Part shown: one piece after another, positions 14,278 through 64,000 of the stretch | Position numbering within the stretch: position 1 is the first letter of the stretch | Layout: the number at the start of each line of letters is the position of its first letter | Source of the DNA: Mayamaea pseudoterrestris | Taxonomy: Eukaryota | Assembly: GCA_027923505.1 (NCBI GenBank) | Contig: BROI01000013.1 | Span: 62,001 to 126,000, forward strand | Direction: 5' to 3' | DNA length: 64,000 bases | Notes under the pieces: generated by a model | What the model saw: the letters and a program-made list of their open reading frames with translations, nothing else | What the model was told of the DNA's origin: nothing | Database searches by the model: none | Program-made: the position numbers and the translations under genes

Positions 14278-14358
14278 AGCCCGGAAGTCATCCGTCGAAA
14301 CTACATGGCCACAAAACGCAATCAACAATCAACCATTGAGAGTCAATGAAATCAAACC

Positions 14359-36756: not shown

Positions 36757-39700
36757 TCATCGCCCGCCATCTTCGATAGACTCTGTTAAAAGTTCTAGAA
36801 CCTTGTCCAAACCTATTGCACGCCACATTGCCTGCCAATTGTTGTCAATTGGTGCAGTGTCAAGCTTTCGGGCGACGGTATGCATTTGCTCAGGACTGGC
36901 ACCATATGGATACATGCCAGCCCGCTCTGCTCGTTGATGCATGGCGGTGAGTTCAGCGGGTGACATGACAGGATTGCGGGACATAAAATTGATTCCCTCA
37001 AACACACGAACGCCTCCTCGTTCGAGGCATTGGAACTGAATCGCTTCCGTGTAGTCGCCAGTCTTCGGATCCGTTTGAATGTCGACAATGTAGTTTGGAA
37101 ACTCGACACCAAAGCCTTTTTCGCGCAAAATACCTGGAGAGTCGTTTGGATCGACACGTCCAAACAAAAAGTAATGAGCGCCATTCGCAACGGGACTCTT
37201 GTCCCATGACAGGGGTGCTGCCTCGGGGGCCGGTCCTCTTACTCCAAAGTCGTCGATCCAACCATTGCCATCGTTCGTCAATCGAATATCTAATGTCGTG
37301 TCATAAACTTCCTTGAACTGGGTCCAGTCGTGGAACTTGGCCTCGTACCACAGCCCCTGATACTTGTTCAGGTCAAAATTTTCCATGCTTGGCTGACGGA
37401 CCTCGTCGTAGGAAGGGCAACCCTTGACGAGTTTACCCTGATAAGCATCGTCGAGGGCAAGGTTGTAGTCGCCAAGACCAGCTTGTCCGTCAAGGCCAGC
37501 TCCAACGTGATTAATGAATGCCGCAACCAAACCAACGTTCACCGCGTCTCGTACTTGCTTGGAAGAAGACATCGCCCAGATCACCGAAACATTGCCTGCC
37601 GCGAATAGAATCGGTATCAGTCCGCCAATTTGGGGCCCAGGAGTTCCGTGCAGCACTTCGCTTATCCAAAGTATGGGTTGTAGTAAGGGATGGGCCACAG
37701 CAAAAAAAATCCAGAAGTTGAGGGCTGCCCAAAACTCAGTAGGATCGGGAGTGTTTCCTTTCATCACCACTAGCGATTGGATAAAGTCAACCCAACCTTG
37801 CCAATGACTTGCTACCGCTACTCCTCCCAATATCATTGACACCCAAACAAGAAGGTTTGATGGCAAGCGTAGCGCTGTGTCAGTGCGCTCAATCGCAACG
37901 TCCGCATTTGCACTTTGCGCCACTCGTTTCCCTGTGGCAACCGTTTCGACCAGATCCACAAATGCGTCCGCAAAATTCGCATTCGTCGCTCCATCCACAA
38001 TCGGCGACACAGGATGAAAGGTGAGCTTCAACAGGCCATTCACCGTCATGCAGGAAACGGGATATAGGCAACCCGAGAGAGTGTGAGGCGTCGCATAGAA
38101 TATATCCCTAATTTGGTACTTTCCGTGGGTCGAGCTCAACACTCTCCGCTTTGACGCCTTTTCTTGTTCCAGTGCAAATGCCTCTTGCCTCTCAAAAACA
38201 CCAACGTTAGTAACACCGGCGCTGTATGCTCGTCCTTGTGACGATTTTGACTTTGATGATAGATGTACAAGGTTGGTAAGGTCCGAAATTGTCATGGCAA
38301 AATCAAAGACTCGAACAGCATGAGCAGGTCCATCCGATTCGATAAACTTTACTGTCTGTCGCTTCCCCTCCTGCGCCAGACCCCAAAAAATTTCTAAATT
38401 CTGCCTTGTCGGGTTTCGCCGTACCGTTTCACCACTTCTGTCGGGAATGGAGTCAAACATGAGGTCCATGCTCCCAGCCATGCAGGCAACGTGTTTCGCC
38501 GTTATCTAGTTTGGCACCAAATCGTCGCATGTCAAGAGACTCTAAGATCTTGTAGTTCCGTTCTTGTTGCTGGGACTTGGCAAAACTACCTCTGTCGATG
38601 AAGTCACTCAGCGTCAGCGTCATGGCCGCCGTGAGTGCATGAGTAATTGAAACTCCCTGGGCGCGACAAGCGTGTAATAAGGCGCTAGTGACGTCTTTTG
38701 AAAGCGATCGAAACTGCACCGTTGATTTACGCGTGCTTGTCGCGTCATCAATCCCACCGGCGGCTTGTCCGGAAATTATGGAAAGGGCTCCTACGAGTGG
38801 ATTCGTCGAGGACGCAGCTTCATGCTTTAGGGTCGTTTGTTCAGGCAAAATGACTGGATTTTTCAATGTTTCGGCAGCTTTGCCAATCACATACTGCAAA
38901 GTTCCAATCGACAATCCGCTGGTGCCAGCTTTCTTCCATTGTTGATCTCTACCCAGGACGGATTCCTCCATTGATACGGGCAAGTCATGTTGCATTAGTC
39001 GGATCGGTGATGCACTGGTACCACCGCTTTCCATGGTCGACAAAACTTCCAGAATTTGATCCAAGATGCGATTGGCACTACTTTGATCCGAGATTGCATG
39101 GTTGAAGCTGAAGACGAGTGCACAAGGAACATTGTTACTGGAAAAGGCATTTGCCTCGGTAGCAATTGTTGTCGTGTGAAGCTCCAGCTTCCAAAGCGGA
39201 CCCGCATCAATTTGACACCAATCGCCGCAATCCAAGTCTTTCGCGAATGCTCTTTTCCAACTTGCTTCTAGTGCATCGGGTGATGCCACTTGGACGACGT
39301 GTAAAATGTCGTCGACGTGGAATTGGTCATCGTTTGCGACAAATCGCAACGGATCAGGTTCGCCGACTCGTACCATTTGAAACAAATCAATCCGTTTCTC
39401 GGGCTCGCCCGTACCTTGGACGCGTGCACGTAGCAAAGGATGCGCTTGCTGAATTGTTTGGATCGCTTTGTGCAGCATTGTGAGCGACGGTGTGCGATTT
39501 AAAGTAGCTACCATGACATGGTTCATTTGCGCAAACTTTTCGCTCGACAAAGCGTATTGTCGAGGAAGCATGAGAAGCTCCTGTGAGCCCAGATTGCGAG
39601 ATTGGGCTTTTTTGTAGCGAATGGTCGTCTCTGGTTGCTGTTCGAATGATGTTTGCTCCAATGGTGAAGCAAAAAAGTACGTTGAAGCTGAAGTGGTGAC

Positions 39701-39901
39701 AGACTCGGGCGTTACGATAGGTTCTCGTTTTGCGAATTTCAGACGAGATCTCTTGTGTGATGCCCAATAATAGCTCCATGTCGATGATTGATGCTTTGTC
39801 GGAACGAAAGCATTACTGAAATGATGTTGATGCCTTAGCAGCAGCAAAAAGGACGACAAGGTGCCGATGATGAAACAACGGCGACGACCGACAAGAAACA
39901 T
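36757..39901 (-). pseudogene. Acyltransferase-lipocalin fusion, copy 1, one frameshift near 38491 (possibly a sequencing error)
   Basis: GCAACGTGTTTC here versus GCAACTGTTTC in copy 2; otherwise only a few substitutions. Confidence 0.8.
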
Positions 39902-40307
39902 GCTGATGATTTTACGGTTGCTAACTTTTATTCAATGCGTCTGTCTATTATACAGCAGGGGTTTCTGCAACGCTGACGAGTAATACTGTAGTAGAAGGTT
40001 TGATGATGGACTGATGAGATGTCGTTGAAGTGTTGCTGGAACAAGCAATCCGCGCGCGTCATGACTTCGTGTACCGGTACGATTTTTCGACACTGTGAAT
40101 CAAACAGTAGTGCCAAAAACTTTGATTTTCAACGGACGATGACTGTGGCTCTAACAGTTGTGCCAAAAACTTTGATTTTTGACACTATGCTCGATCTAGT
40201 ACACATCTTCATGAATACAGTGACTATGAAGTGGACTGTACTTTGTTATCGGCTTCGACGATTCTGCTGCTTCAACCATGTCGAGCAGCTCTCTACAAAC
40301 AAACACC

Positions 40308-41703: not shown

Positions 41704-41733
41704 ACTCATGCCTCATTCCTGTAGTTCGTTATT

Positions 41734-44700: not shown

Positions 44701-46090
44701 CAGCAACTGCCCCTCGAATCACGATTTCTGTCCGCAGACCAATTTAGATTCGATCACGCGTATATTGTCGCGCAATTCCCCTGCATTTCCACCTTTCGCT
44801 CTTCTCTTGTCTTGCCAGTTCCTGCAAAAAAATTTGTCTCATTGCTTCATTGAACGTTTGCATTCAACAATTCGTTTCTCAATGACTGCGCGAGTGAGCG
44901 GCCCTCCTTTCCACTGCAAGCCGGGTGCATACTGTGGAAAAAGATAAGTGTATATCTCACATAGCGCTTTAAAACACTGGCCATCCTTTCGATTCCAACT
45001 CACTAATCGTGCCACCCTTTTCGTTCTCTTGCTGTACGACAAACTTTCTTCCTTAGTAAATTTTCACTTTTCCGCGGTATGGATCAAAACGATTGAATCG
45101 CTCAATTCCTTGTCTCGTCTTGACATCTGCTTTTGTCATACGCCGATCCTAGCGGAAGCCACCCCGTAGCTGGCCCTCTGCTGACGACGAACTGGAGAGC
45201 GAAATTGACCCACGTGTAAAAGGCTGTAACTTTCCCACAGCCGCCCAAATTTTTTGAGTGTGCGAGCTGCGACGCGGACTCGATTTACAATTCTAACTTC
45301 TCTCCGCTACACTAAAAATATCTTCGTGTGACCTATCTGCAATGAGTTGTTCGGACAGTGTCTTGACCTGCACCTCCGCCATTTTTGAAGAAAGGAATCA
45401 AATCCTCCGTATCCCTCGCGACGATGCGTCTTCCATCATACCCGTACCATTCTGAAAACCTCGCGAGACAAATGAACCCTTCTTGTGCGATTTGGCCTCG
45501 TTTTTTTAAATTTTCAAGATTTCGAAACTATGACTCCACGAATGGATGACGAAATTATTCGAGTTGTTTGAACTCTCAACTGCAACTTTTCCTTCATCGA
45601 CGCCATCTTCTTGCTCAATATGTCATGTTCTTGTCGTTAAATCCTTGCTTTATCGAACCTGAACGAATTAGTTTTCGAACTTTACAATACAACATCCCGT
45701 CCGACTCTTACCTCTCCTGCATAATCTGAATTATAAACTCTGTCATCTTTGGGTCGAAAATTCTTATGTGCACCGATCAGTTTGTTTCACTGGCTTTCCC
45801 ATTCCAGTGAATTTGGCGATGACGCTCTCAAACCTACTGGGCGACGTTCCCTTTTCACCGCAACCATTCCACTGCTCCACCTTCGTCTAGTCCCCAAGAT
45901 CCCCTGCTCCACACCCCCTTGTTCAACGCTTGAAGTTATGACGTAACTTCTCCCTGCGTACTTTCTGACAACCCTCAAACAATCCGGTTAAAGTGGCGTT
46001 GTGGTTTTCTCGTTGCAGTTTAATCGCTGTTCAAAACATTAGTCTCGAAACACTCGAATCCATTCGTACACATGTCAGCCTTGACTGTCA
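41734..46090 (-). pseudogene. Heavily frameshifted copy of myosin 29 (tail plus part of motor domain)
   Basis: Aligns to 59844-64000; remnants near 45990-46075 read GFECFETN..EQ..IN.CNEK.QRHFN (motor switch-II/relay region). Confidence 0.8.
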
Positions 46091-48840
46091 GTTCATCTTC
46101 GCGCTGGCATTTCTGTGGGAGGCAGCATCGGCGTTTGGTTTATTCGCTGATCAGCCAAAAAAAACGTTCTTTGGCGGGCGTCGCTTGGCCGCCATCGGCG
46201 TTTGGTCCTTTTTTTGTACCGTCAACGACAAGATTTTTGGTAAAATGGCTCCGCCATTTTGGGTTCGCTGATTCAAACTCGCACGCCTTTTGCAAACTGG
46301 CTCGAGTGTCATCGAAATGTCGCTGTGTCCGTTATCGTTTTGTCATTGAATCGCACATTGCCCAAAGAGTACAGCAGCGACCAACAAGTGCCTTTGTTCT
46401 GCGTCCTCTGAGCTGCTGGTGAGGCAGTGAATTGTTTCCTGAAGCTACCGCACGTCTTCGTCTTGGTCCCTCCCCTACGAGAACTGTTTGCCTCTTCAGC
46501 ATCAACCAACTCATCGCATTCGGATTCCCACTGCTGGTAAAAAAGTGATAGTTGCGTTCGCCATCGCTTGCTGCGTGATTCGTGTTCGCTCAAGCAATGC
46601 TTTTACAGTCAGTAATGGCAGAACGCGCGTTGTAGCTACCACACTCGTTAACAATGGTGACATTAACTTACTTTGAAATGGACCTCCCGTTTGGCTCCGG
46701 TATGTACCTAGTGCCAAACGACTGTTGTCGTTGCGCATGTCTGTGCATTGCCAAAAGCCTCAATCAAGATTTGAAGATAAAACTTGATCTTCAGTGATTA
46801 ATCGAGGTCGACTCGGTAACGAGGCTGCTTTCGTCCGTAATTCGGCGACTTCCTCATTTTTCGTTGCTTCCGTCTTGCCCCACCCGTTCGCCTTGATAAT
46901 GCTTTGGTTGCGGACCGTTCCAGGTGCATGAAGGTGGTGCTCCTGCACCAAAACACTGGTCCTCTCTGTATACTGTAATTTGCGAACGGAACCAACAATC
47001 AAAGCACTGTAGGCACGATTCGCCGTCAGAAATAAATCGCGCTTGTTTGAAAACTCTGATGATGCGATACTGATTAACATTTGTTCTTCTAATGTCATCC
47101 CCTCGACGTAAATTCGCGCGATATGTTAACTGGGAAATAAGAATTGACCGTGTAATCTCTCGTTGAAACCTGTTCTAATTGTAGAGGCAACTTCCCTCTG
47201 AAATTTGTGGAAGAGCAAAACTTCACAACCAATTCTAACAGCATAACTTGAGCTGTCTGTGATCTTGTGGAGGGTTCCATCCTTTGACAACGCTGGAGCT
47301 GTATGTGTGTTCCTCAGTTTTTCTCCTTCCTTGATTCACGGCATGAATAGATGTTTCGAGGGGATCTTCGTGTCGACTGGATCTTTCTTTCCGCAACGGA
47401 TCGAAAAAGTACTCGCTGCCGAGAACAAAAAGCAACGGTTATGAATCTATACTGTCTCAACGACTACCTTAGACTCCGATGGTTTCCGACGTACTGTCCC
47501 CTGCGTCCGTTTGGTTCCATTGCCTTGTTTTCGAGGACTTGCGCTTCTGCGGGTGATTTACCCATGATAATTTCGATTTTTAAAGACTGAACCAAGTATG
47601 ATGTCGCTGCCGAGACGACTAAATGTGCCATGTGCGGCGAGATGAGTGAGGTGGGTGATGGATGGTTGTTTTTTCGTGAAATGGCCTAGGAACGTTTACC
47701 GGAACGACATCAAGACATGACCCTCGAAATACATTGATATAATATTCTTCATGCCTTTGTTTTGAAATGGTCTCCATTGCTCTTTTCTTCTCTGCAAGAC
47801 ACGAAACTTGCGTCAACGACCCATCCCATTCACATTCAATAAACTGCGACTCGTCGTCTTCCTCTGCTTACTTGTACTCAACATCTCTTCCAAAACTGGA
47901 TTCTCTTGTTCGCATGCTGGCGGCATGGAAAGTTTGAAATTCTTTCCGCATCTTTTCCAGTTGCGATCACCCTCGATGAAGGAACCGAATTGGGAATCAT
48001 CAAGACCGAGAGAATGGTGGAGAAACGTTTGCAGGACTGTCTTGGTGGACTGATCGGCGGTCCATTTGGTGAGTCGTGCAGTCATGCAGTATGCAATAAC
48101 GCACCTCATGTCGACAGACCCGTGCATTTCGTACCGTAGACCCCTTCTCATGCTATACTCGTTTGTTTTCATCATTTCAGGGCAATCTTTGGGCGACCAT
48201 TGGGTCGAATATTATTAGACAAGAAAGGCGCGGAATCAAGCACGAGAAAGTGACATGGCAAAACTTGGGATCGATTCCGACATGCTACTGGCTGCCCAAG
48301 AGGTGGCGGAGGCACTGGAACGATACAAGTGAAGGCTTGAAAACAGTTCAAGACAGTTTATTTTCGTTACGCAGCGACTTGCCGAGCGCCTTGGAAACTG
48401 ATGCCGAAATGCGCTCATGGGTAAGGCGAAATCATATGGCCATTGACGGAACGAGGAAAGGCGAGGAAGATTCTGCTGGAACGACAATTCACGCTGGAGA
48501 AGCTCAAAACGACTTTAAAGAGTTGCATTGTCATGAAGAGTCGATTGGAAGTCATGGAACGGAACGTTGGCGTGCTGGAACGCAAAGCTATGGATATCGA
48601 AACGTTGCTACAACGAACCGTTGGCGCCAAGGCAATGCAAAGGTCCTCACGTTGGAGCAGCTCTCTCTCCCAGACGAAGACCCATTGCTGAGGCAGTTTC
48701 GTGACATGGGTATCAGAATAGATTGTCTATATGCACAAGAATACATGTACATGCTCGAGCACACACTGCTCATCGCATCAGCACCAGCACACCATCGAAC
48801 TAATGCATCGGAATGATGCGGTGCGTACTGCAGCACCTAG
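46091..48840. other. Unassigned region of fragmented ORFs, possibly a decayed transposon
   Basis: Many short broken ORFs with protein-like composition; no motif recognised; abrupt junction with the myosin remnant. Confidence 0.3.
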
Positions 48841-48943
48841 AAATGGTGATTGAACAATAGTAGTGGTAAGTTACAGTAAAGACTCATATCGCCTCATTAC
48901 TAGATGCATACAGTAAAGTTTCGTCGCACGGTACGGTAGGGGT

Positions 48944-49203
48944 TGTTGGTGGGTTTTCGAATGGCGCGCCATTGCGTCAGTCGCATTCGAGTCACGCTTG
49001 TCACGCTTGCCGATTGACGATTGACTGATTCATTCATTCTTCTCATTCTTTCATTCTTCCATTGGCGCATCCTCCTGGCCATAATATCATTCCTTTCTCC
49101 TCTTTTACGTTCCATGTACCAGTACATACAAAGATTAGCGATACGAATGCGAGCAATCATTTTTGTTGCTGTTTCGTGAAGCGGCCGCTTTCTTCAATTA
49201 ACA
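48944..49203 (+). repeat. Candidate 5' LTR of the copia element
   Basis: 260 bp bounded by TGTT...AACA directly upstream of gag-like frames; no second copy in the window to confirm. Confidence 0.4.
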
Positions 49204-52200
49204 GTTTCTTCGGCTCATCGACACGTACGCAACGATCGACCGAAGCAACTGAGAAAATACTCATTGTACATGAAATCAAAGGAAACCAATATTTGTCATA
49301 TGGAAGATTCAACGAAGATCCCGACTCAAACTCGGACGAAGCGAGCCGACGCTCGCTGGATTCATCGACTATAACGGTTCGCGCGATCCCGATGGATTCA
49401 TCCGTACGACGAACAGATCATCACTTTCGTCGGGCGCTCCTACAAGAAATATACCAAGGAGCTGCTCAAGGGCATGCGCAACGTGGAACTGAGATTCCTG
49501 ACGAGCCTGCACGTCCAACTGAAGGATGCCGACACGACGGACTCGGACTGGTCCATAATGCTCGAGGAATACAAGGCCGACAAGAAAGAGCATGTCGAGC
49601 GCGTGCGTGTATACTTCCGACTTCCTCGTTGGTCTCTACGCCGTGTTGCATGGACAATGCACGGAGCGTATGAAGGATCGTGTCAAGTCGCACGCCAAGT
49701 TCCGAGACGCCGAGGAGGACACGGACGGAATTGTTGCTGGCGATTATCAAGGAGATCTCGCATACGTACGAAGGGCGCTGCAAACTTGTGGATCAAGTCG
49801 TGACATTCAAGCTGAGTTGTTCGGACGTACTCAAGGAGCGCGCGAAAGCCTGCAGAAATATTACGAAAGCATGGTCACGCTGGCAGACGTGGCGAAGGGG
49901 CGGTTGGCGTCACGATGCACAACGAGATTGTGGCGCTGGAACACTGCCGAGGATGACAATCGTAACAAGGCGAACAAGGAGGATATCAAGGCCGCCGAAG
50001 AGCTCGAGCTTGCGATGCTTTTCGTGCGTGGCGCCACGGGCGAATACGCTGGGCAGTGCAAGCACTTGCGCAACTGCTACCTCGACGGGCACGACAACTT
50101 CCCGTTGACGATCCACGATGCATACAACATCATGCAGCGTCGTGAGCATGCGGATGGAGAAGCCACGTTGCCAACGAACGAGGGCGTGGCGTTTCACACG
50201 ACTGGTACAGCGCGTGACCCTCCCAGATGCTGGACCTGTCAACAGGTTGGTCATGTGCAGCGAGACTGTCCTACGAGAACGGAGTCTACGGAGAGTGCGC
50301 CGGCTGCAGAGGCTAGTTGGGGGCGCAGCACTTCACGCTGGGTAGCGAGGAAGAAAGCGATGACGACGATGAGGTCGGATACATGTTCGCGCAGCCGCCG
50401 AAGGTGAACATCTCGAAGAAGGCTGTGCTCTTGGACAATCAGTCGACAGTGGATCTGTTCTGCAACGCCAAGATGCTGACGAACATTCGCCCGGTGCCAA
50501 CGTGGATGGTGACTGGCGCAACGCTGGTACAGTAAGGACGAACATGATGGGCGACCTGGAGGGCTATGGTCCGGTGTGGTGGTATCCGCAGGGACTGGCG
50601 AACATTTTGAGTTTGGCGCAAGTCCGCAAGAAGTTTACCGTGGAGTATCTCATGCACGGCGTGGATCGTCCAATGTTCGTTGTGGAGAAGCCGGATGGTA
50701 AGCAGCGAGAGTTTGTCGAGACTGACTCTGGGCTGTATGTTTGCGAGAGCTTTTCGAAGGGCAAGCGCAGCGATGTCAAGGATGGAGTGGCGATGTTGAC
50801 TACGGTAGACGATAACCGTACTAACTACACCAATGATGACTATTTACGCGCTGTTAGAGCTAGGGAACTGCAAATCAAAATTGGACGGCCAAGCCTCAAG
50901 GATTACCTGCGCATCGTTACTAGCAATCAGTTGCCGAACTGTCCTGTGACGAAGGCCGACATCCTGGCTGCTGAGCACATCTTTGGACCAGATGTTGGCT
51001 CGTTAAAGGAAAGACGACGCGTCGCGCGTCGCATCTGGTGAAGCCTGCGATTGTTGAGCAGCTTCCACCGGCTATCATGAGTCGCTATCGAGACGTTACT
51101 CTTTGTGCTGACATCATGTATATCAACAAAGTCCCTATGTTGGTGACGTTCTCCCGCAGCATTCGTTTTGCTACGGTTGAGGTGATTCAAAACCGTACGC
51201 TTCCGGTTATGTTGAAGGCAATCGAGTCTGTGTTGAAGATTTACGCACGCGGTGGGTTCCGGGTCGTCGCGGCTCTGATGGATGGGGAGTTCGCTCCAAT
51301 GCTTGGCGCGTTGGCTGATCTCGGAGTGGCGCTCAATGCGACATCTGAGGATGAACACGTTGGCGAAATTGAACGTTTTATCCGTGTCGTGAAAGAACGG
51401 GTGCGCGCGACATACAACACGTTGCCATTTAAGCACGTGCCGGCACGCTTGGTTATCGAAATGACGAAGTCTGCCGTGTTTTGCTGAATGCGTTTCCGAA
51501 CGAGCGTGGCATTTCGAAGGATCTCAGTCCACGCACTATTGTGACTGGTCAGACAGTTGACTTTAATCGGCATTGCAAGTATGAATTTGGTCAGTATGTG
51601 CAAACGCATGAGTCGCACAGCAATGACATGCAGGCGCGCACGATCGGTGCGCTGGCTCTGCGCCCGACTGGTAATGTGCAGGGTGGGTTTTATTTCTCAG
51701 TTTGTCTTCGGGCAAGTTCTGAATCGTGGGCACGCTACGCCTTTGCCCATGCCTGATGATGTCATTGAGCGCGTGCATCGTCTCGCTCGTCAACAGAAGG
51801 CCAATCCGGGCATCGTGTTCATGGACCGCCACCGTGTTGCGGAGGCTGCTGAGCCAGTCATGTGGCACGAAGATGACGCCGAGGATGATGATGACTCTGA
51901 TTATGATGACGACGCTTCTCGCGGTGACGACGACTCTGCCGGCGGAAGCGAAGGAGTGAATGCGACCGATGACGACGACGACGACGACGATGGTGCTGAC
52001 GGCGCAATCGAAGGAGTGCCGAACGACGAGGATGGTGAGGCCATTGACGGCGAACTTGACGACGCGCCAGCCGTGGATGATGGCGAAATTGAAGGAGTGC
52101 CCGATGAAGGCGAAATTGAAGGAGTGCCAGCTGCTGCAGACGAAGAGGATTTCGATGCGCGCTATGGCCCACGCACTGGTCGGTATGGCCTGCGTGCGCG

Positions 52201-53711
52201 CAAACCTCGCTCGTTCGCTCATTTGTTCACGCTCGACGCTGCAGAGGAAGTGTCGGAGCCACTCGTCACGGCACAGATGAATATGCGACAAGGTTTAAAG
52301 GCTTTTGGCGATGCTGGAGTGGAGGCAGTGCGCAAGGAAATGCAGCAGCTACACGACAGGCACGTCATGAAGGCAGTCCCCAATGCACTCTGACTCCGCA
52401 GCAGCGCAAGGACGCTCTGGCGTATTTGATGTTTCTCAAGCGCAAGAGATGCGGGACTGTGAAGGGACGCGGATGCGCGGATGGACGCAAGCAACGAGCA
52501 TACACTGCAAAGGAAGACGCAGCATCTCCAACGATAGCGACAGAGGCCATCTTTCTGACAGCTATCATTGACGCTATGGAAGGGCGCGAGGTTGCTGTGG
52601 TTGATGTACCGGGTGCTTTCATGCAAGCGGAAATGGATGAGTTGGTGCACGTTCGTTTCACTGGGAAGATGGTGGAGCTACTGTTGGAAATTGATCGCGA
52701 GATGTACGAGCCTTGCGTCACAATGGAGAATGGCGAGAAAGTCATGTATGTTGAATTACTCATGGCGCTTTATGGTACGCTTCGAGCAGCGCGACTATTC
52801 TGGGAGAAGTTGTCCGCAAAATTGCTTGAGTGGGGCTTCGAGAAGAACCCGTACGATCCGTGTGTGTGCAACAAGATTGTCAATGGGAAGCAAATCACCG
52901 TGGGATGGCACGTGGACGATTTGAAGATTTCGCACGTCGACGTGAGCGTAGTGGATGAGTTCATCGCGCAGATGGATGAGGAGTTTGGCAAGGAGACTCC
53001 AATGAATAAGTCACGCGGAAAAGTGCACGACTACCTCGGCATGGTATTGGACTATACTAAGCCTGGAGAAGTAGCAATCAACATGGTTGACTATGTGAAG
53101 AACATCCTGCATCATGCGCCAGACGACATGGATGGAACGGCAGCTACTCCGGCAGCCAGTCACTTGTTTCAGATATCGGAAAATCCTGTCATGTTGAGCG
53201 AAGCGAAGAAGCAGATTTTTGTGACGATTGTGATGCAGTGTCTGTATCTGAGTCAGCGAGCGCGACCGGATATTCGCACAGCGATTTCTTTCTTGAGCAC
53301 GAGGCTGCAGCAGCCTGACGAAGACGACTATAAGAAGGCTGCAAGAGTGATTAAATATTTACGCGGAAGCGTGGACATGGTGTTGACGCTGAAGGCGGAC
53401 CAGTCCGGGATAGTCCAGTGGTGGGTGGATGCGTCGTACGCGGTGCACCCAGACATGAAGGGTCACACTGGTGGAACAATGACACTTGGCCAAGGATCAG
53501 TGTACAGTACGTCGGCTAAACAGAAGTTGGTAACAAGAAGCTCGACGGAGAGCGAAGTTGTGGGAGTTCATGATGTGCTACCGCAGTTGCTGTGGACAGG
53601 ATATTTTCTGAAGGCGCAAGGTTTCGGGGTCAAAGACACGAAATTGTATCAAGACAATATGAGTTCAATGCTGTTGGAAAAGAATGGCAGAAGCTCAAGT
53701 ACAAAGCGCAC
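48944..53711 (+). mobile_element. Ty1/copia LTR retrotransposon (diatom CoDi-like), frameshifted, truncated in RNase H
   Basis: Gag knuckle CWTCQQVGHVQRDC; protease LLDNQSTVDLF; integrase ADIMY..DGEF..EHVGEIERFIRVVKER; RT KGRGCADG, DVPGAF, LYG, WHVDDL; RNase H VDASYAVH, SSTESE, YQDNMS; order PR-IN-RT-RH. Confidence 0.95.
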
Positions 53712-54815
53712 TCATCTTCCTCCTCATCTCTCTTTCATATCAACAGCTTCTTTTTTATTTCCCTTCACTGACCTGCTTGCTGCTTCCGCGCCGCCCCTTG
53801 GTGTTTGGTTTCGCCATCGTCAATCGGAGCTGCAAGATCCGCTGCGCTGAAATAATGTGCACGTTCGTTTCGCGTCGTGCCCCGCCAGGAAAGATTTTGT
53901 GTCGTAGCGGTACAATTAAATACCGGTGCGATGTGACGTCGAACTGCCTGCCGACTGCCGACGACGAGATCCTTGTATCAAACGAACGGAATTCTTTCCT
54001 AGCCACCTTGATTCCAACAGCAACGAGTGAATTGATAAGCTCCATAACAAAGAAAGCTTTGAAATTCTAAAAATGGAGGAAAGGAGTCGTTGATAAATCA
54101 AAGAGCATTACGTATCGTATACGGTATCAACAAGTTCCATGGTCGAATGGGTGAAATTGGAATGATGGTGGAAGGACTTCTTCGCTTCTTCGTAGATCAA
54201 GCCCTTTCAGTATCTCAATAACTATATCAAGCTGCTTTTGGTCGAGGCCTTGAAGCAATTTGACAGAATCCATATCTGTAGTTACATGCTGGATTAATGA
54301 GTATGAGCATGCATAGATCCGGTTCTTATGACGTTCGTTGCGCAAATACATTTTTTTGTGGTACAGTCTGGTGGTGTCGTGGCTTTTATATGATAAAGAA
54401 CATATCCGTCTTTCAAACCAATCGAACCGAAGTGCAAACGGCGAAAAGGTAGTGTATCTCGGCTGACAAGATATGCCTTGACTAGCGCAAGGTCCATGGC
54501 GGTAGCGTCTGTTACCACTTATAGTTCCGTCCAGCGATTGTCAGTGCGAAATCATTTTAGCGCAAGCGACTACACCAGCAGGACTTGTTACGAGAATGTG
54601 TACACTGGAGGAAACTGAGAAAATAGGGAGTGTATTACCGTGCGCCGCCTTTCGCAAGGCAAAGAGAACTCTAATCCAATTTCAATTTTTGACCCAGACA
54701 ATGCTGTCGTTCCTTGCCGCAAGCCATGTTTCGATAATTGAACAAGCGGAATTATAAAATAACTTTAAGTAACGTATATTACTCAATTACACACATAAAT
54801 ATATTGCCCTGCCCG

Positions 54816-57800
54816 TCATCGCCCGCCATCTTCGATAGACTCTGTTAAAAGTTCTAGAACCTTGTCCAAACCTATTGCACGCCACATTGCCTGCCAATTG
54901 TTGTCAATTGGTGCAGTGTCAAGCTTTCGGGCGACGGTATGCATTTGCTCAGGACTGGCACCATATGGATACATGCCAGCCCGCTCTGCTCGTTGATGCA
55001 TGGCGGTGAGTTCAGCGGGTGACATGACAGGATTGCGGGACATAAAATTGATTCCCTCAAACACACGAACGCCTCCTCGTTCGAGGCATTGGAACTGAAT
55101 CGCTTCCGTGTAGTCGCCAGTCTTCGGATCCGTTTGAATGTCGACAATGTAGTTTGGAAACTCGACACCAAAGCCTTTTTCGCGCAAAATACCTGGAGAG
55201 TCGTTTGGATCGACACGTCCAAACAAAAAGTAATGAGCGCCATTCGCAACGGGACTCTTGTCCCATGACAGGGGTGCTGCCTCGGGGGCCGGTCCTCTTA
55301 CTCCAAAGTCGTCGATCCAACCATTGCCATCGTTCGTCAATCGAATATCTAATGTCGTGTCATAAACTTCCTTGAACTGGGTCCAGTCGTGGAACTTGGC
55401 CTCGTACCACAGCCCCTGATACTTGTTCAGGTCAAAATTTTCCATGCTTGGCTGACGGACCTCGTCGTAGGAAGGGCAACCCTTGACGAGTTTACCCTGA
55501 TAAGCATCGTCGAGGGCAAGGTTGTAGTCGCCAAGACCAGCTTGTCCGTCAAGGCCAGCTCCAACGTGATTAATGAATGCCGCAACCAAACCAACGTTCA
55601 CCGCGTCTCGTACTTGCTTGGAAGAAGACATCGCCCAGATCACCGAAACATTGCCTGCCGCGAATAGAATCGGTATCAGTCCGCCAATTTGGGGCCCAGG
55701 AGTTCCGTGCAGCACTTCGCTTATCCAAAGTATGGGTTGTAGTAAGGGATGGGCCACAGCAAAAAAAATCCAGAAGTTGAGGGCTGCCCAAAACTCAGTA
55801 GGATCGGGAGTGTTTCCTTTCATCACCACTAGCGATTGGATAAAGTCAACCCAACCTTGCCAATGACTTGCTACCGCTACTCCTCCCAATATCATTGACA
55901 CCCAAACAAGAAGGTTTGATGGCAAGCGTAGCGCTGTGTCAGTGCGCTCAATCGCAACGTCCGCATTTGCACTTTGCGCCACTCGTTTCCCTGTGGCAAC
56001 CGTTTCGACCAGATCCACAAATGCGTCCGCAAAATTCGCATTCGTCGCTCCATCCACAATCGGCGACACAGGATGAAAGGTGAGCTTCAACAGGCCATTC
56101 ACCGTCATGCAGGAAACGGGATATAGGCAACCCGAGAGAGTGTGAGGCGTCGCATAGAATATATCCCTAATTTGGTACTTTCCGTGGGTCGAGCTCAACA
56201 CTCTCCGCTTTGACGCCTTTTCTTGTTCCAGTGCAAATGCCTCTTGCCTCTCAAAAACACCAACGTTAGTAACACCGGCGCTGTATGCTCGTCCTTGTGA
56301 CGATTTTGACTTTGATGATAGATGTACAAGGTTGGTAAGGTCCGAAATTGTCATGGCAAAATCAAAGACTCGAACAGCATGAGCAGGTCCATCCGATTCG
56401 ATAAACTTTACTGTCTGTCGCTTCCCCTCCTGCGCCAGACCCCAAAAAATTTCTAAATTCTGCCTTGTCGGGTTTCGCCGTACCGTTTCACCACTTCTGT
56501 CGGGAATGGAGTCAAACATGAGGTCCATGCTCCCAGCCATGCAGGCAACTGTTTCGCCGTTATCTAGTTTGGCACCAAATCGTCGCATGTCAAGAGACTC
56601 TAAGATCTTGTAGTTCCGTTCTTGTTGCTGGGACTTGGCAAAACTACCTCTGTCGATGAAGTCACTCAGCGTCAGCGTCATGGCCGCCGTGAGTGCATGA
56701 GTAATTGAAACTCCCTGGGCGCGACAAGCGTGTAATAAGGCGCTAGTGACGTCTTTTGAAAGCGATCGAAACTGCACCGTTGATTTACGCGTGCTTGTCG
56801 CGTCATCAATCCCACCGGCGGCTTGTCCGGAAATTATGGAAAGGGCTCCTACGAGTGGATTCGTCGAGGACGCAGCTTCATGCTTTAGGGTCGTTTGTTC
56901 AGGCAAAATGACTGGATTTTTCAATGTTTCGGCAGCTTTGCCAATCACATACTGCAAAGTTCCAATCGACAATCCGCTGGTGCCAGCTTTCTTCCATTGT
57001 TGATCTCTACCCAGGACGGATTCCTCCATTGATACGGGCAAGTCATGTTGCATTAGTCGGATCGGTGATGCACTGGTACCACCGCTTTCCATGGTCGACA
57101 AAACTTCCAGAATTTGATCCAAGATGCGATTGGCACTACTTTGATCCGAGATTGCATGGTTGAAGCTGAAGACGAGTGCACAAGGAACATTGTTACTGGA
57201 AAAGGCATTTGCCTCGGTAGCAATTGTTGTCGTGTGAAGCTCCAGCTTCCAAAGCGGACCCGCATCAATTTGACACCAATCGCCGCAATCCAAGTCTTTC
57301 GCGAATGCTCTTTTCCAACTTGCTTCTAGTGCATCGGGTGATGCCACTTGGACGACGTGTAAAATGTCGTCGACGTGGAATTGGTCATCGTTTGCGACAA
57401 ATCGCAACGGATCAGGTTCGCCGACTCGTACCATTTGAAACAAATCAATCCGTTTCTCGGGCTCGCCCGTACCTTGGACGCGTGCACGTAGCAAAGGATG
57501 CGCTTGCTGGATTGTTCGGATCGCTTTGTGCAGCATTGTGAGCGACGGTGTGCGATTTAAAGTAGCTACCATGACATGGTTCATTTGCGCAAACTTTTCG
57601 CTCGACAAAGCGTATTGTCGAGGAAGCATGAGAAGCTCCTGTGAGCCCAGATTGCGAGATTGGGCTTTTTTGTAGCGAATGGTCGTCTCTGGTTGCTGTT
57701 CCAATGATGTTTGCTCCAATGGTGAAGCAAAAAAGTACGTTGAAGCTGAAGTGGTGACAGACTCGGGCGTTACGATAGGTTCTCGTTTTGCGAATTTCAG

Positions 57801-57959
57801 ACGAGATCTCTTGTGTGATGCCCAATAATAGCTCCATGTCGATGATTGATGCTTTGTCGGAACGAAAGCATTACTGAAATGATGTTGATGCCTTAGCAGC
57901 AGCAAAAAGGACGACAAGGTGCCGATGATGAAACAACGGCGACGACCGACAAGAAACAT
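54816..57959 (-). CDS. Plastid-targeted fusion: CoA-dependent acyltransferase (condensation/alcohol acetyltransferase fold) + 3-4 TM + lipocalin domain, 1047 aa
   Basis: Signal peptide then SNA-FVP; HPLLRARV, GPLWKL, FNHAISD (HxxxD), LDMRR, GVTNVG; TM block; FDLNKYQGLWYE, YIVDIQTD, FMSRNP lipocalin conserved regions. Confidence 0.85.
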   Translation of the reverse strand: MFLVGRRRCFIIGTLSSFLLLLRHQHHFSNAFVPTKHQSSTWSYYWASHKRSRLKFAKREPIVTPESVTTSASTYFFASPLEQTSLEQQPETTIRYKKAQSRNLGSQELLMLPRQYALSSEKFAQMNHVMVATLNRTPSLTMLHKAIRTIQQAHPLLRARVQGTGEPEKRIDLFQMVRVGEPDPLRFVANDDQFHVDDILHVVQVASPDALEASWKRAFAKDLDCGDWCQIDAGPLWKLELHTTTIATEANAFSSNNVPCALVFSFNHAISDQSSANRILDQILEVLSTMESGGTSASPIRLMQHDLPVSMEESVLGRDQQWKKAGTSGLSIGTLQYVIGKAAETLKNPVILPEQTTLKHEAASSTNPLVGALSIISGQAAGGIDDATSTRKSTVQFRSLSKDVTSALLHACRAQGVSITHALTAAMTLTLSDFIDRGSFAKSQQQERNYKILESLDMRRFGAKLDNGETVACMAGSMDLMFDSIPDRSGETVRRNPTRQNLEIFWGLAQEGKRQTVKFIESDGPAHAVRVFDFAMTISDLTNLVHLSSKSKSSQGRAYSAGVTNVGVFERQEAFALEQEKASKRRVLSSTHGKYQIRDIFYATPHTLSGCLYPVSCMTVNGLLKLTFHPVSPIVDGATNANFADAFVDLVETVATGKRVAQSANADVAIERTDTALRLPSNLLVWVSMILGGVAVASHWQGWVDFIQSLVVMKGNTPDPTEFWAALNFWIFFAVAHPLLQPILWISEVLHGTPGPQIGGLIPILFAAGNVSVIWAMSSSKQVRDAVNVGLVAAFINHVGAGLDGQAGLGDYNLALDDAYQGKLVKGCPSYDEVRQPSMENFDLNKYQGLWYEAKFHDWTQFKEVYDTTLDIRLTNDGNGWIDDFGVRGPAPEAAPLSWDKSPVANGAHYFLFGRVDPNDSPGILREKGFGVEFPNYIVDIQTDPKTGDYTEAIQFQCLERGGVRVFEGINFMSRNPVMSPAELTAMHQRAERAGMYPYGASPEQMHTVARKLDTAPIDNNWQAMWRAIGLDKVLELLTESIEDGGR

Positions 57960-58160
57960 GCTGATGATTTTACGGTTGCTAACTTTTATTCAATGCGTCT
58001 GTCTATTATACAGCAGGGGTTTCTGCAACGCTGACGAGTAATACTGTAGTAGAAGGTTTGATGATGGACTGATGAGATGTCGTTGAAGTGTTGCTGGAAC
58101 AAGCAATCCGCGCGCGTCATGACTTCGTGTACCGGTACGATTTTTCGACACTGTGAATCA

Positions 58161-58237
58161 AACAGTAGTGCCAAAAACTTTGATTTTCAACGGACGATGA
58201 CTGTGGCTCTAACAGTTGTGCCAAAAACTTTGATTTT
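58161..58237. repeat. 27-bp direct repeat pair, 50 bp apart, in a divergent promoter (also near 40102-40180)
   Basis: AACAGT(A/T)GTGCCAAAAACTTTGATTTT at 58161 and 58211. Confidence 0.85.
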
Positions 58238-58370
58238 TGACACTATGCTCGATCTAGTACACATCTTCATGAATACAGTGACTATGAAGTGGACTGTACT
58301 TTGTTATCGGCTTCGACGATTCTGCTGCTTCCAACCATGTCGAGCAGCTCATATCATACAAACAAACACC

Positions 58371-59792
58371 ATGGCGGATTCTACAATCGCGGCAGAAGTG
58401 GAAATCAACAGAAAGCGAAAGGAAGAGTGGTCTCTCCTTCTAGATTACTATCGTCGGCAAGGAGTTTCGGAAGAACAATTGCTGGAAAGACAATGCAGGC
58501 ATCGATTCATTCGGCTCAACCCAAGATTCGATGCGAGAGAAACACTTGAACTACTTCAAAAAGAATGTAGGAATCACAATCAAGTCATCAAGACTATAGC
58601 GAATGAAGAATATCCAATGCTTGTTCCGTGGCTTGACGCAGCTTGGGGATTTTATGCCCTGCCTGGTGACTTTGGGTTGGCGCAATCCTCTTGCTTTCGA
58701 TCCGGACGAGTCTACGGCCAAGACGTGAGCTCGGGAGCAGCCGTTGCTGCGTTACTGACCAATCAGCTTGACATTGAACAAACATGTCAAGGAATAAGGG
58801 TTGACAGAACCGCTACTACGCAGCAATCCTCATGCATTTCAAAGCCAAATCTCAGAGTCCTTGACCTGTGCTGCGCTCCTGGACTCAAGCTTTGCGCCAT
58901 GGCGGACTATCTTCGCACCAACAACACTGCATCGCAGTTAATTGGAGTCGATATATCAGAAGGGAGAACGAATATCTGCGTGCGAGTCATTCAAAAGTAT
59001 CAGATTGATTTGGAAACGTCAGGACAGCAACTATCGGTTGGGTCTAGTTCGGAGACAGATACTGTTGACGGCAACACCAAAAGTGACATTTGCATCCAGT
59101 TATGCTGCAATGACGGAACAACTTATCTGCAAGACGAAGCTGCAGCTTACAATTTGGTGTTTGATTCGCAGGTTGCTGCGGAGGAATTATTGCACTGTGG
59201 CAAGAGGAAACGCATGAACAAGAGCGCCAAGGCGCGACAGGCTAAGCTGCTACGAGAGCAGAAGAATTTACATTTCGATAACGACAAAAACCTGCTATTA
59301 TTTGACCGCGTGCTTGTTGATGCAGAATGTAGCACGGATGGCTCGATAAAGCACATGCAGAAGCGTTTCTCGAAAAAACAACACCAAGATCAGTCGAACA
59401 ATCATCGCAGAGGCAGTCTCATTGCTTCCTTGACGGACAAGGCGGAGCTTGAAGCGCTCATTGCCCTGCAGAAGGGTCTTGCGGCGAATGGATTTCGATT
59501 ACTGGCACCAGGAGGAAGCATGGTCTACTCAACGTGCTCATTGTCGGAGCAGCAAAATGAAGGCATCGTTCGGTGGTTGTTGGAAACGTACGGCAACGCC
59601 AAACTAGTTCCCATCATCATTGATGCATCGCCTTCGAATGGTATTCGACAAGGCAGTTTGTCTGGTACGCTTCGTTTTCTTCCTGGGCCGCAAGCTACTA
59701 ATGGTGCGGATGATGAAAGCAGCGTGTCAATGACCAACTCACTCGTTGGCGGTGGATTTTTTCTGGCGAAAATTGCTAAGACTAATGCATAA
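58371..59792 (+). CDS. NOL1/NOP2/Sun (RsmB/NSUN) family RNA m5C methyltransferase
   Basis: YGQDVSSG, VLDLCCAPGLK, GVDIS, FDRVLVDAECSTDGS, MVYSTCSL..QNE, GFFLAKI. Confidence 0.88.
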   Translation: MADSTIAAEVEINRKRKEEWSLLLDYYRRQGVSEEQLLERQCRHRFIRLNPRFDARETLELLQKECRNHNQVIKTIANEEYPMLVPWLDAAWGFYALPGDFGLAQSSCFRSGRVYGQDVSSGAAVAALLTNQLDIEQTCQGIRVDRTATTQQSSCISKPNLRVLDLCCAPGLKLCAMADYLRTNNTASQLIGVDISEGRTNICVRVIQKYQIDLETSGQQLSVGSSSETDTVDGNTKSDICIQLCCNDGTTYLQDEAAAYNLVFDSQVAAEELLHCGKRKRMNKSAKARQAKLLREQKNLHFDNDKNLLLFDRVLVDAECSTDGSIKHMQKRFSKKQHQDQSNNHRRGSLIASLTDKAELEALIALQKGLAANGFRLLAPGGSMVYSTCSLSEQQNEGIVRWLLETYGNAKLVPIIIDASPSNGIRQGSLSGTLRFLPGPQATNGADDESSVSMTNSLVGGGFFLAKIAKTNA

Positions 59793-59843
59793 TGCCTAAT
59801 TCCTGCAGTTCGTTATTCTAAGCATGCTTTATTACGCCAAATA

Positions 59844-62800
59844 TTATGCCTTTCTTGGTTTCGATAGGGCAAGGAGGGCCAAGCCAACGATCGCCAAAGC
59901 TCCGGCAATTCCAAGCGCCAGCAACTGCTCATGGGGCATGTCAGCGAGCAGAGTACTGGTCTTAATAGGCTCCAAGCGCTTGACTGCAAGTTTGATGACC
60001 TTGCCTGTTTGCCGCGCGACATCCCATGCTTCCGCAACATCATCGTCGCCAGTAATTATCACTACATCGCCCTCGTCATCTGTATATTGTAGCTGAATTT
60101 TATCATGCGGTATGCCAGACTTTTCGGAAACGCTTTCGAGAAGCAAAGCAATGCTTGGAGGACACTTGATGCGATGGGTGTTGCCAGCAGGATCCGTGAC
60201 TTTAAAAACGCTTGCATTTGCAGTGCTGCGACTCAAATCGTCCATTTGATAGGCCATTTTGTTGGCGCTCTTCCCGAGCTCGCCAAGTGTGCTACCGGCA
60301 AAGGACTTGTCCTCTTCAAATTCAAGCGTTGCTGGAATATGCGAAGGGATTTGCGATGCAAACACCATTTCAGGGCGGTGGGATTTGAGTTCGCTCTTGG
60401 CTGTGCTCTTTGACTGCGATTCCTCAAGGTCCATTGCATTGCTAAAGATCGACCGCCATCCAGCCGTTCCACCGCAGCCATATAATACATCCATGATGTC
60501 AACAAGGCCAACGACGTTTCCTGAAGCATTGACCACTGGCAACGTCAATATTTTGTTGTCGTACATGATTTGCAGTGCATCAAGAACCGTCAAATCTGGG
60601 GAAACGGACTCAGGTTCCGATGTCATTACATCGAATACAGGAGTATCAAGCGGTAATTCATTCGCAATGGCGCGCGTCATCATATCCTTAAAGCCAAAAA
60701 TGCCCAACAACTTTCCATTCTCGACGATGAGCGCGGCATGCCGACTGGCCGCCATACGCAATGCAGCCTCGCGAATTGTTGTTGTTGGGCTGACCATAGT
60801 AGACGGCTTCCCTTTTAAAAGCCCAGCAAGCGTCGGCAGCGCTTCGCCGCCACTGGCTTGAGACAGTAGACTGCCAAGTAGATTCTGAAGCAAGGCAACC
60901 TGCGAATCATTTGCATTATCCTGAAGGCCAAGCGTCTTGACCAATTCTTCTGAACCTTTCAACATTTGTTTGTCTGAACCAGCGCGCTCCAGCTTCGCTA
61001 TAGCAGCAGTCATACATTTCTTAATATCAAGCACACCAACCACAGCTCCTTCACTGTCAACAACTGGCAAGTGACGGAAATGGTTTTCGATCATGCACTC
61101 AAGAGCGTCTATGGCAGGATCGTCGAGTGCTACGCACGTTGGATCAATCGTGATTATGGCAGAAATAGGAGTTGTTGCAAGATCCAGATCTCTTGCAACA
61201 GCCCGCCGAGTGAAGTCTGTGTCAGTTACTATGCCAGCGAGCGCTCCTTCTGGATAGACGACGAGTGATGCGTCGCTTCGCTTTCTTTGCAAAAGTTTAG
61301 CGACGTTTAGAATACTTTCGTTGGTGAGCGACAAGACTGCTTTCATAGGACGGAGGTTTGCAACCGTCTTTTGTGCCGCACAACGGCTTCCTTCTGCTCG
61401 GATAGAAGCGACGCTCACTGGACCGTAATTACTTGGAGCTGAAATTGTCGATGCATCATCGACTTCCAACGCTTTGCTAAAAATTGATCTCCACCCAACC
61501 GCCCCTCCCGATGCATATATGACATCAAGTACGTCAACCAATCCAGCAACACGGCCGTCATCCTCGACGACGGGAAGAGTCAAAAATTTGTTGTCAGCCA
61601 TAGCATAGAGAGCATCAATAACCGTCATGTCTGGTGAAATGCATTCAGGTTCTCGAGTCATCACAGCAGACACTGAGGTTTTATCGAGCGAAAGTTGCTT
61701 AGCAATTGCTCGGGACATCATGTCTTTAAATCCAAAAATGCCAACAAGACGTCCATCTTCGACAATCAGTGCGGCATGTTTGCTTTCCGCCATGCGCATA
61801 CCAGCTTCCCTGATACTAGTTTGAGGGCCAATGATAGTGGACGGTCGCCCTTGCAATAAGCTCCGCAAGGTCGGAATAGCCTTCCCGCCCAGTGCCTTGG
61901 CCATGAGACTCGAAAGAAGGGTATGCAATGCTAAAGCTTGCTCATTCGTCGCTCCTTGAACTATTTGATGAACAGCGTCCTCTGCTACCTTTGGACTGCG
62001 AGATTGCAGCGTTTCCAGCTTCGCAATGGCTTCGTGCAAGCAATTGCCTATATCAACTGTTCCGACAATTTTTCCATTCAAATCGGTAACTGGAAGATGG
62101 CGAAACTGATTCTCCAGCATGGTATTGAGGGCATCCATGGCAAAATCTCCAATGGACATGCAAGTAGGATCAGGAGTCATAATGCGAGCGATAGGGGTCA
62201 AGTCTGGGTCAATGCCCGGATTGGCGACAACACGCCTTGTAAAATCAGTATCTGTTACAATGCCCATCACTTCCTCTTGATCACCAAGGATAATGCATGA
62301 ACTGGCTCTCTTAGACGACAACAATTTTGCCACTGTTGTAATCGTCGCGAAAGAGTTCGTGGTTAACGGTTTCGCGGGTCGAAGTTTTCCCACCGTCTTG
62401 CCAGTTTGTGCGGACTTCGTCACAGACTCAGGTTCGATTAGCTTTCCAACTGGCACCGAGGTGCTCGACTTAATTACACTCACTACAGATGGAGCAATCG
62501 AAACTATAGGAAGTGGTCCAGCAATCGTACGACGCGACATTTCCGAGCCCTTAAGCTCATTTGTAAATTTATGCTCCAACGGTTCTTCTCGACCAAGTCT
62601 TGCTTCTAGCGCATTCATCTTTCCATGAATCTCCTCTGCCAAAGTAAAATGCTTATTTGATATCGCATGGTCCATCTCTATCTTTAGACCTCGCAAACGT
62701 TCTTGGCAATCAACAGCGGTTGGATAGGCTGATCGTAGTCCTGTGAGGTTGTCAACCTCCGATCGTAGCATTTCCGCCTTCTTGTAATTGCTGGATGCGA

Positions 62801-64000
62801 CAGCTCTATTTACCAGGTCTGTGCCACACGCAATAGCTTGTTCAAGATCAAAGCGTGAGTGTATTTCCTTTTTAACACCGTCAAGCGTGAGTGACTCATT
62901 ACTTGCATTCCCTAGAGCTACACGCTGAGTCACTTCTGTCAAATGAGCTTCATCAATGTCATCTCCGTCGAGACAATCCTGAAACCTGAGCTTAGCCGTT
63001 TCAAGTCGAGTCTGGCCAGCAGCTGCCGCCTCGAAGTCACGATTTCTGGCCGCAGACGCAATTTCAGATTCGATCACGCGTATATTGTCGCGCAATTCCG
63101 CCAGGGTCGGCATTTCCACCCGTTTCGCTGCAAGATTCTCAAGTTGATCTTGCAGTTCACTGCAAACCTTAAAATCTTTTTGTCTCATTGCTTCATTGAG
63201 AAGCGTTTGCAATTCAGCAATTCGTTTCTCAATGACTGCGCGAGTGAGCGGCCGCTTACTTTCCACTGCAAGCCGGGTGCATGCACTGGTGGAGAAAGAA
63301 GAGATTAAGTGTATATATCACATAAGGCGCTTTAAAACACTGGCCATGCGCTTACATTTTCGATTCCAACTCAGCTGCTGCCTTATAATCGCTGGCCGCC
63401 ACAGCCTTTTCGAGTTGCTCTTGCTGTAACGCGACTAAAACCTTACATTCCTTAAACGAAAGATCGTAGAAAGGGTCTTTCATCTTATTCACGCGGTGTG
63501 ATGCTAGCATGGATCGAAAACGAGCTTGAATCGCTACAATTCCTTGTCTCGTCTTGACATACTGCTTTTGTCTACGCCGACGTCGCTCAGCGGAAGCCAC
63601 CCGCGTAGCTGCCTCGTGCTGTCGCTTGCGACGAACCATGTGGAGGCGAAACTTGACCCACGTGATCAAAAAGGCTGTAACTTGGTCGCGCACCAAGCGA
63701 CGCCCAAATTTTGTGAGTGTGCGAGCTGCGACGCGGACTCGAAGTTTAGCAAGCCGTTCTAACTTCTCTGCCAGCTCACGCCTTAAAAATATCTTCGTGT
63801 GACCTATCTGCCAATCAGCGCCTGTCACATGTAACTGTTCGGACAGTGTCTTGACCAGTTGAACAATGCCAAAATCGCCATCGCCAAGAACTTTGTCCGT
63901 CAGCAGGACACTGAAGCGATGGAAAAAGCTTTCAAGATCCTCGCGAAAAGCGTATCCCTCGCGACGGATGCGAATCGCTTCCATCATACCCGAATAGCGC
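59844..64000 (-). CDS. Class-29 myosin, 3' part (end of motor, IQ, coiled coil, CBS array, PB1, C-terminal TM); intron 63286-63355
   Basis: MMEAIRIRREGY and WQIGHTKIFLR (motor/converter); IQARFR; four CBS pairs (GIVTDTDFTRR, FRHLPV, GIFGFKDM); LQYTDDEGDVVII PB1; terminal TM. Confidence 0.9.

What the first reader, a model, noticed from the sequence alone, without database searches (positions are those of the whole stretch)
54816..57959. Plastid acyltransferase-TM-lipocalin fusion: candidate xanthophyll acetyl/acyltransferase
Seen: one intronless 1047-aa ORF with a bipartite plastid presequence, an HxxxD CoA-dependent acyltransferase domain, 3-4 TM helices and a C-terminal lipocalin barrel. 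Known: lipocalin folds bind xanthophylls in violaxanthin de-epoxidase-type enzymes, and fucoxanthin carries an acetyl ester that needs an acetyltransferase. Inference: a thylakoid enzyme acylating a carotenoid or similar hydrophobic alcohol. I recall reports of a fusion-derived xanthophyll acetyltransferase in heterokont algae but cannot verify that this is that gene, so novelty is uncertain.
Basis: partly seen in the sequence, partly recalled or inferred. Interest (0 to 1): 0.72.

Follow-up and report, generated by a model that had tools for sequence, protein, structure and literature searches.

The report
Diatom xanthophyll acetyltransferase (XACT) gene
This diatom gene encodes the already-published enzyme that puts the acetyl group on the brown pigment fucoxanthin; only its attached membrane-plus-lipocalin half, which is more conserved than the enzyme and exists as a separate protein in other algae, still has no known job.

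Summary
The 1047-aa ORF is real (minus strand). It is a diatom orthologue of xanthophyll acetyltransferase XACT (Cao et al., PNAS 2026, PMC13080032): 62% identical over 953 columns to a P. tricornutum PtXACT allele, with the HxxxD motif and the essential L153 site intact, and both folds confirmed.

The C-terminal half is still open. Its lipocalin is 83% conserved against 54% for the enzyme (higher in 79 of 79 full fusions). The half occurs alone with its own presequence in haptophytes and diatom-clade proteins, and as a soluble protein with a Tat-like signal in brown algae, xanthophytes and cryptophytes. Dinoflagellate fusions use the other subfamily. The published 'dispensable' test used a mutant that keeps an in-frame allele, so this half was never removed in vivo. 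A role as the missing neoxanthin dehydratase is possible but unlikely (about 8%).

A frameshifted second copy at 36757-39901 is most likely an assembly error.

The parts
54816..57959 (-). XACT gene, single ORF, 1047 aa
   Evidence: 62% identity to PtXACT allele P0012
57867..57959 (-). signal peptide, aa 1-31, cleavage SNA-F32
   Evidence: sequence by eye; aligns with the AF motif of homologues; no predictor run
57663..57866 (-). transit-peptide-like, unconserved region, aa 32-99
   Evidence: low pLDDT, unaligned; function inferred
55992..57662 (-). CoA-dependent acetyltransferase (AATase/condensation fold) domain, aa 100-656
   Evidence: 59% identity to PtXACT domain 1
57489..57500 (-). HPLL motif, aa 154-157; L157 equals PtXACT L153, whose deletion kills activity
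57144..57158 (-). HxxxD catalytic motif H268-D272
55551..55913 (-). membrane helix bundle, aa 683-803: four hydrophobic helices and one amphipathic helix; conserved H699, H737, H751; only net-positive loop is 779-787
   Evidence: no known family found
54909..55484 (-). lipocalin barrel, aa 826-1017, GxW at 849-851, conserved C828/C958 and H857-D858-x-T860-Q861
54819..54908 (-). conserved C-terminal helices, aa 1018-1047
36757..39901 (-). second copy of the gene, one extra base at 38491 and three substitutions; probably an assembly artefact

Best explanation
A nucleus-encoded, plastid-targeted diatom XACT. The N-terminal HxxxD domain transfers acetyl from acetyl-CoA to the 3-hydroxyl of allenic xanthophylls (allenoxanthin, phaneroxanthinol, fucoxanthinol) in fucoxanthin synthesis: shown for the P. 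tricornutum orthologue, inferred here by orthology. The helix bundle anchors it in the thylakoid membrane (inferred). The lipocalin is a separate conserved module, probably facing the lumen (about 60%), that binds a hydrophobic pigment and is not needed for acetylation; its job is unknown.
For: 62% identity over 953 columns, same ends and architecture as PtXACT allele P0012 (P0012 differs at 8 of the first 400 residues from the Dataset S4 PtXACT sequence, compared by eye). Hits include proteins the paper lists as XACT orthologues: Psemu1 297863 and CAMPEP_0185733512. Domain 1 identity of 59% is in the range of the paper's main diatom orthologues (44-61%) and above the lipocalin-less paralogues (36-38%). 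H268, D272 and L157 intact. No other locus in the own genome. Lumen side: 10 of 16 soluble relatives carry a twin-arginine, hydrophobic, AxA-type signal by eye; across 71 sequences the loop before the last helix is the only net-positive one and the segment after it is acidic; Cys pair conserved.
Against: No assay on this protein; substrate preference differs between lineages and is only inferred. No RNA run on record. With four crossing helices both domains would lie on the same side; the family hydrophobicity of helix 3 is like that of helix 1, so topology is unresolved. Dinoflagellate XACT joins enzyme and lipocalin with no membrane helices (P0348), which puts both on one side there.
Confidence: 0.95

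Rival explanations
1. The gene is bifunctional: the membrane-lipocalin half is itself an enzyme, the missing neoxanthin-to-diadinoxanthin dehydratase or another unassigned xanthophyll step.
For: The step is stated as unknown. The barrel matches the VDE lipocalin domain at Z 13.5, about one unit below the top rows. Polar residues H857, D858, T860, Q861, E927, Q955, Q957, R975 are at least 90% conserved across both subfamilies. Lipocalin identity 83% against 54%. Fused lipocalins of diatom type and dinoflagellate type do not form one clade (AU p 1e-82; group chosen after seeing the first tree). The only characterised biallelic mutant keeps a -3 bp in-frame allele.
Against: Named homologues occur in four brown algae, which use the violaxanthin cycle, and in Guillardia. 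Full-length PtXACT showed no activity on all-trans-neoxanthin, and Symbiodinium XACT gave the acetylated product; no diadinoxanthin is reported. Non-catalytic lipocalins score as high or higher.
Confidence: 0.08
2. The C-terminal half is a general pigment carrier or photoprotective lumen lipocalin of chlorophyll-c algae (carotenoid or tetrapyrrole ligand), fused to XACT for membrane anchoring or co-expression.
For: Named members span diatoms, Triparma, haptophytes, dinoflagellates, brown algae, xanthophytes, Phaeothamnion and a cryptophyte, wider than XACT or diadinoxanthin. Top folds bind astaxanthin, heme or biliverdin. Enzyme works without it.
Against: No ligand evidence; fold ranks are tied; most hits are unnamed, so range is incomplete. 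83% identity is high for a plain carrier (my judgement).
Confidence: 0.55
3. The ORF is an artefactual or inactive fusion, or a non-XACT paralogue.
For: The region lies in a mis-assembled duplication; split forms exist in some diatoms (Seminavis 599 aa).
Against: 79 of 120 listed homologues cover all three parts in one chain; contigs of three runs each span the whole ORF in one piece with no indel; full-length PtXACT cDNA was cloned and complements.
Confidence: 0.03

Closest known systems
PtXACT, Phatr3_J36932 (UniProt B5Y425), Phaeodactylum tricornutum; Cao et al. PNAS 2026, PMC13080032
   Same: Presequence, AATase, membrane segment, lipocalin in one chain; 62% identity; HAISD and HPLL motifs; same C-terminus
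   Different: 27 aa longer (presequence and short loops); untested species. Nothing mechanistically different was found
Alcohol acetyltransferase / condensation-fold acyltransferases (TRI3, PapA5, NRPS C domains)
   Same: HxxxD, fold
   Different: 10-15% identity; plastid-targeted; fused to membrane helices and lipocalin
Lipocalins: VDE lipocalin domain, crustacyanin, ApoD, Blc, Arabidopsis TIL, Plasmodium lipocalin
   Same: Barrel fold at Z 13.5-14.8, GxW motif
   Different: 11-18% identity; no VDE Pfam hit; preceded by a membrane bundle with no match found

Membership tests
XACT | High similarity to PtXACT domain 1 (paper: E < 1e-20) | tested here: met
   E 0.0, 62% overall, 59% in domain 1
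XACT | HxxxD motif | tested here: met
   H268-D272, identical context FSFNHAISDQSS
XACT | Conserved L153 site | tested here: met
   L157
XACT | AATase/condensation fold | tested here: met
XACT | C-terminal lipocalin in diatom members | tested here: met
XACT | Bipartite plastid presequence | tested here: inconclusive
   SNA-F motif and h-region by eye; no targeting predictor available
XACT | Acetyl-CoA-dependent acetylation of allenic xanthophylls | not testable with these tools
   shown only for orthologues
VDE/VDL de-epoxidase family (for the C-terminal half) | VDE family sequence signature | tested here: not met
   no VDE Pfam match at E up to 1 or in 12 homologues at E up to 0.5
VDE/VDL de-epoxidase family (for the C-terminal half) | Lipocalin barrel like VDE | tested here: met
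   3cqn Z 13.5, rmsd 3.2, 161 aligned; other lipocalins score the same or higher

The most novel reading that the evidence does not exclude
The diatom XACT gene is a two-enzyme gene: its C-terminal membrane-plus-lipocalin half, an independent plastid protein in haptophytes and other algae and joined to XACT in two different forms, catalyses an unassigned pigment step such as neoxanthin to diadinoxanthin. Its role was masked because the published mutant keeps an in-frame allele.
Probability: 0.08. Interest if true: 0.85.

Novelty: new member of a known kind. Interest (0 to 1): 0.33.

Why it matters
The enzyme itself adds one more orthologue to a family published in 2026. The useful remainder is a concrete gap in that work. 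The lipocalin half is the most conserved part of the protein. It survives as a separate plastid-targeted gene where XACT lacks it. It was not removed in the experiment that called it dispensable. One domain-deletion experiment would show whether it has its own pigment role, including the last unassigned step of diatom fucoxanthin synthesis.

Tried and rejected
Pfam and PDB sequence searches gave only sub-threshold hits. The full-length model was poor in the lipocalin (pLDDT 30-45), so that half was folded alone. The membrane bundle has no usable Atlas hit and was barely tested in the fold searches; this shows neither novelty nor absence. Atlas hits for the C-half were all under 0.9, leads only. 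No RNA holder listed; contigs of runs X2 and X3 stop about 60-120 bases beyond each end of the ORF, but run kind is unknown and both are one study, so this was not used as expression evidence. No Nannochloropsis or Euglena name among the 76 rows or the 120 of 588 listed; most rows are unnamed and the search is word-limited, so this was not used. The idea that the lipocalin tracks diadinoxanthin was weakened by brown-algal and cryptophyte members. A real tandem duplication was rejected. The careful tree did not finish; quick trees were used. No complex prediction was sent. Literature: 'xanthophyll acetyltransferase', 'J36932' and 'XACT'+'fucoxanthin' each gave only PMC13080032; 'diadinoxanthin synthase' gave one 2019 cultivation paper, listing only; searches listed no title or abstract on this lipocalin module.

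Full report
Observation. The ORF lies on the minus strand at 54816-57959 and encodes 1047 aa. It has a signal-like N-terminus ending SNA-F32 (read by eye), a single HxxxD (H268-D272), four hydrophobic peaks between aa 679 and 803, and a GxW at 849. Pfam hits are all below cut-off. Structure prediction confirms a condensation/AATase fold for the N-half and a confident helix bundle plus lipocalin barrel for aa 679-1047 (pLDDT 94.5; Z 13.5-14.8 to lipocalins).

Identity. Cao et al. 2026 (PMC13080032) describe PtXACT, Phatr3_J36932, 1020 aa, with an acetyltransferase and a lipocalin domain. I read parts 1-5 of 6 of the main text, Dataset S3 parts 1-2 of 3, Dataset S4 part 1 of 2, SI PDF part 3 of 5, and keyword hits; figures were not visible. 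The mutant loses fucoxanthin and accumulates fucoxanthinol; recombinant enzyme acetylates allenic xanthophylls with acetyl-CoA. Hit P0012 is a 1020-aa allele of PtXACT and is 62% identical to the window protein over 953 columns. Other hits are listed in the paper as orthologues. The residue equal to the essential L153 is L157. Own-genome searches find only this locus and its duplicate in the window. An earlier scan note on another genome reached the same name; I had identified the paper before seeing it.

Mechanism. Shown for orthologues: acetyl transfer to allenoxanthin, phaneroxanthinol or fucoxanthinol; domain 1 alone is enough in vitro and in vivo; the Nannochloropsis enzyme works when targeted to the tobacco stroma. 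Inferred here: the same activity, a stromal enzyme domain and a thylakoid anchor. The main text has no occurrence of 'transmembrane', 'membrane' or 'lumen', although Dataset S1 carries a 'Transmembrane' prediction for the gene.

The C-terminal half. Among 120 listed homologues, 79 cover all three parts; the other 41 are partial and were left out of this count. In the 79, median identity to the window protein is 54% (enzyme), 55% (membrane part) and 83% (lipocalin), and the lipocalin is higher in 79 of 79. Among the 120 listed of 588 shorter hits, 23 start with Met, have a signal-like N-terminus, lack any acetyltransferase match and run from the membrane part to the C-terminus; 23 others are fragments of fusions. 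One such cluster holds a complete 434-aa Phaeocystis antarctica protein; a partial Prymnesium parvum protein is of the same type; three fall among diatom sequences in the tree. A second, soluble subfamily is named in Phaeothamnion, Chrysoparadoxa, Tribonema, Vaucheria, four brown algae and Guillardia. By eye, 10 of 16 of these have a twin-arginine thylakoid-transfer-like signal, 4 have a single arginine (three named brown algae and one unnamed close match) and 2 are cut short; the motif is from general knowledge, not a predictor. Dinoflagellate XACT (P0348, recognised by likeness to the Symbiodinium row) joins enzyme and lipocalin without membrane helices, and its lipocalin groups with the soluble subfamily. 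A single clade of fused forms is rejected (23 rows, p-AU 1e-82; quick tree, long branches, group chosen after the first tree). This allows either two fusions or one old fusion with several splits; no root was tested.

The gap in the published test. Mutant S32 carries a +1 bp allele and a -3 bp in-frame allele. The latter kills acetylation but still encodes the C-terminal half, so rescue by domain 1 does not show that the cell can do without that half. The deletion could destabilise the whole protein in vivo; this is unknown.

What the half does. The neoxanthin-to-diadinoxanthin enzyme is stated as unknown (PMC9499517, passages only; PMC11857680, passages and section 2), and conserved polar residues in the barrel would suit catalysis. 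Against this, brown algae have the protein but use the violaxanthin cycle, and full-length enzymes incubated with neoxanthin gave no reported diadinoxanthin. I give that reading 8%, and about 55% to a pigment-binding or protective lumen protein. Lumen position rests on the soluble relatives' signals, loop charges in 71 of 116 aligned sequences, and the C828/C958 pair; four crossing helices would contradict it.

The second copy. Window 35647-49336 repeats 53712 to about 68599. Identity falls from over 99% in the gene to 79%, with gaps outnumbering mismatches (414 against 213). The upstream copy has one extra base at 38491. Contigs of 4 of 4 laid runs show no insertion there; in three runs a contig of the region carries the upstream copy's left flank, and in two of them (X1, X4) that contig also spans the intact gene. 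Contigs drop rare variants and one run may be the source, so this is strong but not final evidence for one real locus and an assembly error around the retrotransposon at 49592-53711.

Verdict. A new member of a known family, interest 0.33, nearly all of it from the untested C-terminal module.

Noticed in passing
window 35647-49336 vs 53712-64000 and L008: False-looking 14-15 kb duplication; the upstream copy decays by indels and breaks the copies of XACT, an RsmB/F-type methyltransferase, a CBS-PB1 protein and a myosin. Genes at 40-49 kb should not be called pseudogenes.
   Followed up: yes
window 49592-53711 (+): Copia-like retrotransposon remains (zf-CCHC, RVT_2), high copy by contig depth, between the two copies; no listed contig joins it to the gene.
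   Followed up: partly
window 55551-55913 (-): Three histidines (H699, H737, H751) at least 90% conserved in the membrane bundle; a possible metal, heme or chlorophyll site, untested.
   Followed up: no
PMC13080032 Dataset S3: The haptophyte Diacronema lutheri is listed with a fused 1018-aa XACT, although the text says haptophyte XACT lacks the lipocalin.
   Followed up: no
PMC13080032 Dataset S4: The row 'Thalassiosira pseudonana 1' shows a sequence that resembles the dinoflagellate protein P0348 rather than B8BUF6 as printed in Fig. S3; probably a table slip.
   Followed up: no
P0199, P0232, P0233, P0243, P0244: A faster-evolving stand-alone paralogue clade of the membrane-lipocalin module (45-52% identity); no separate copy found in this genome.
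   Followed up: partly
window 59844-63188 (-): 1114-aa protein with eight CBS stretches, PB1 and a hydrophobic C-terminus.
   Followed up: no
window 13633-14281: Tandem repeat with a period of about 42 bases.
   Followed up: no
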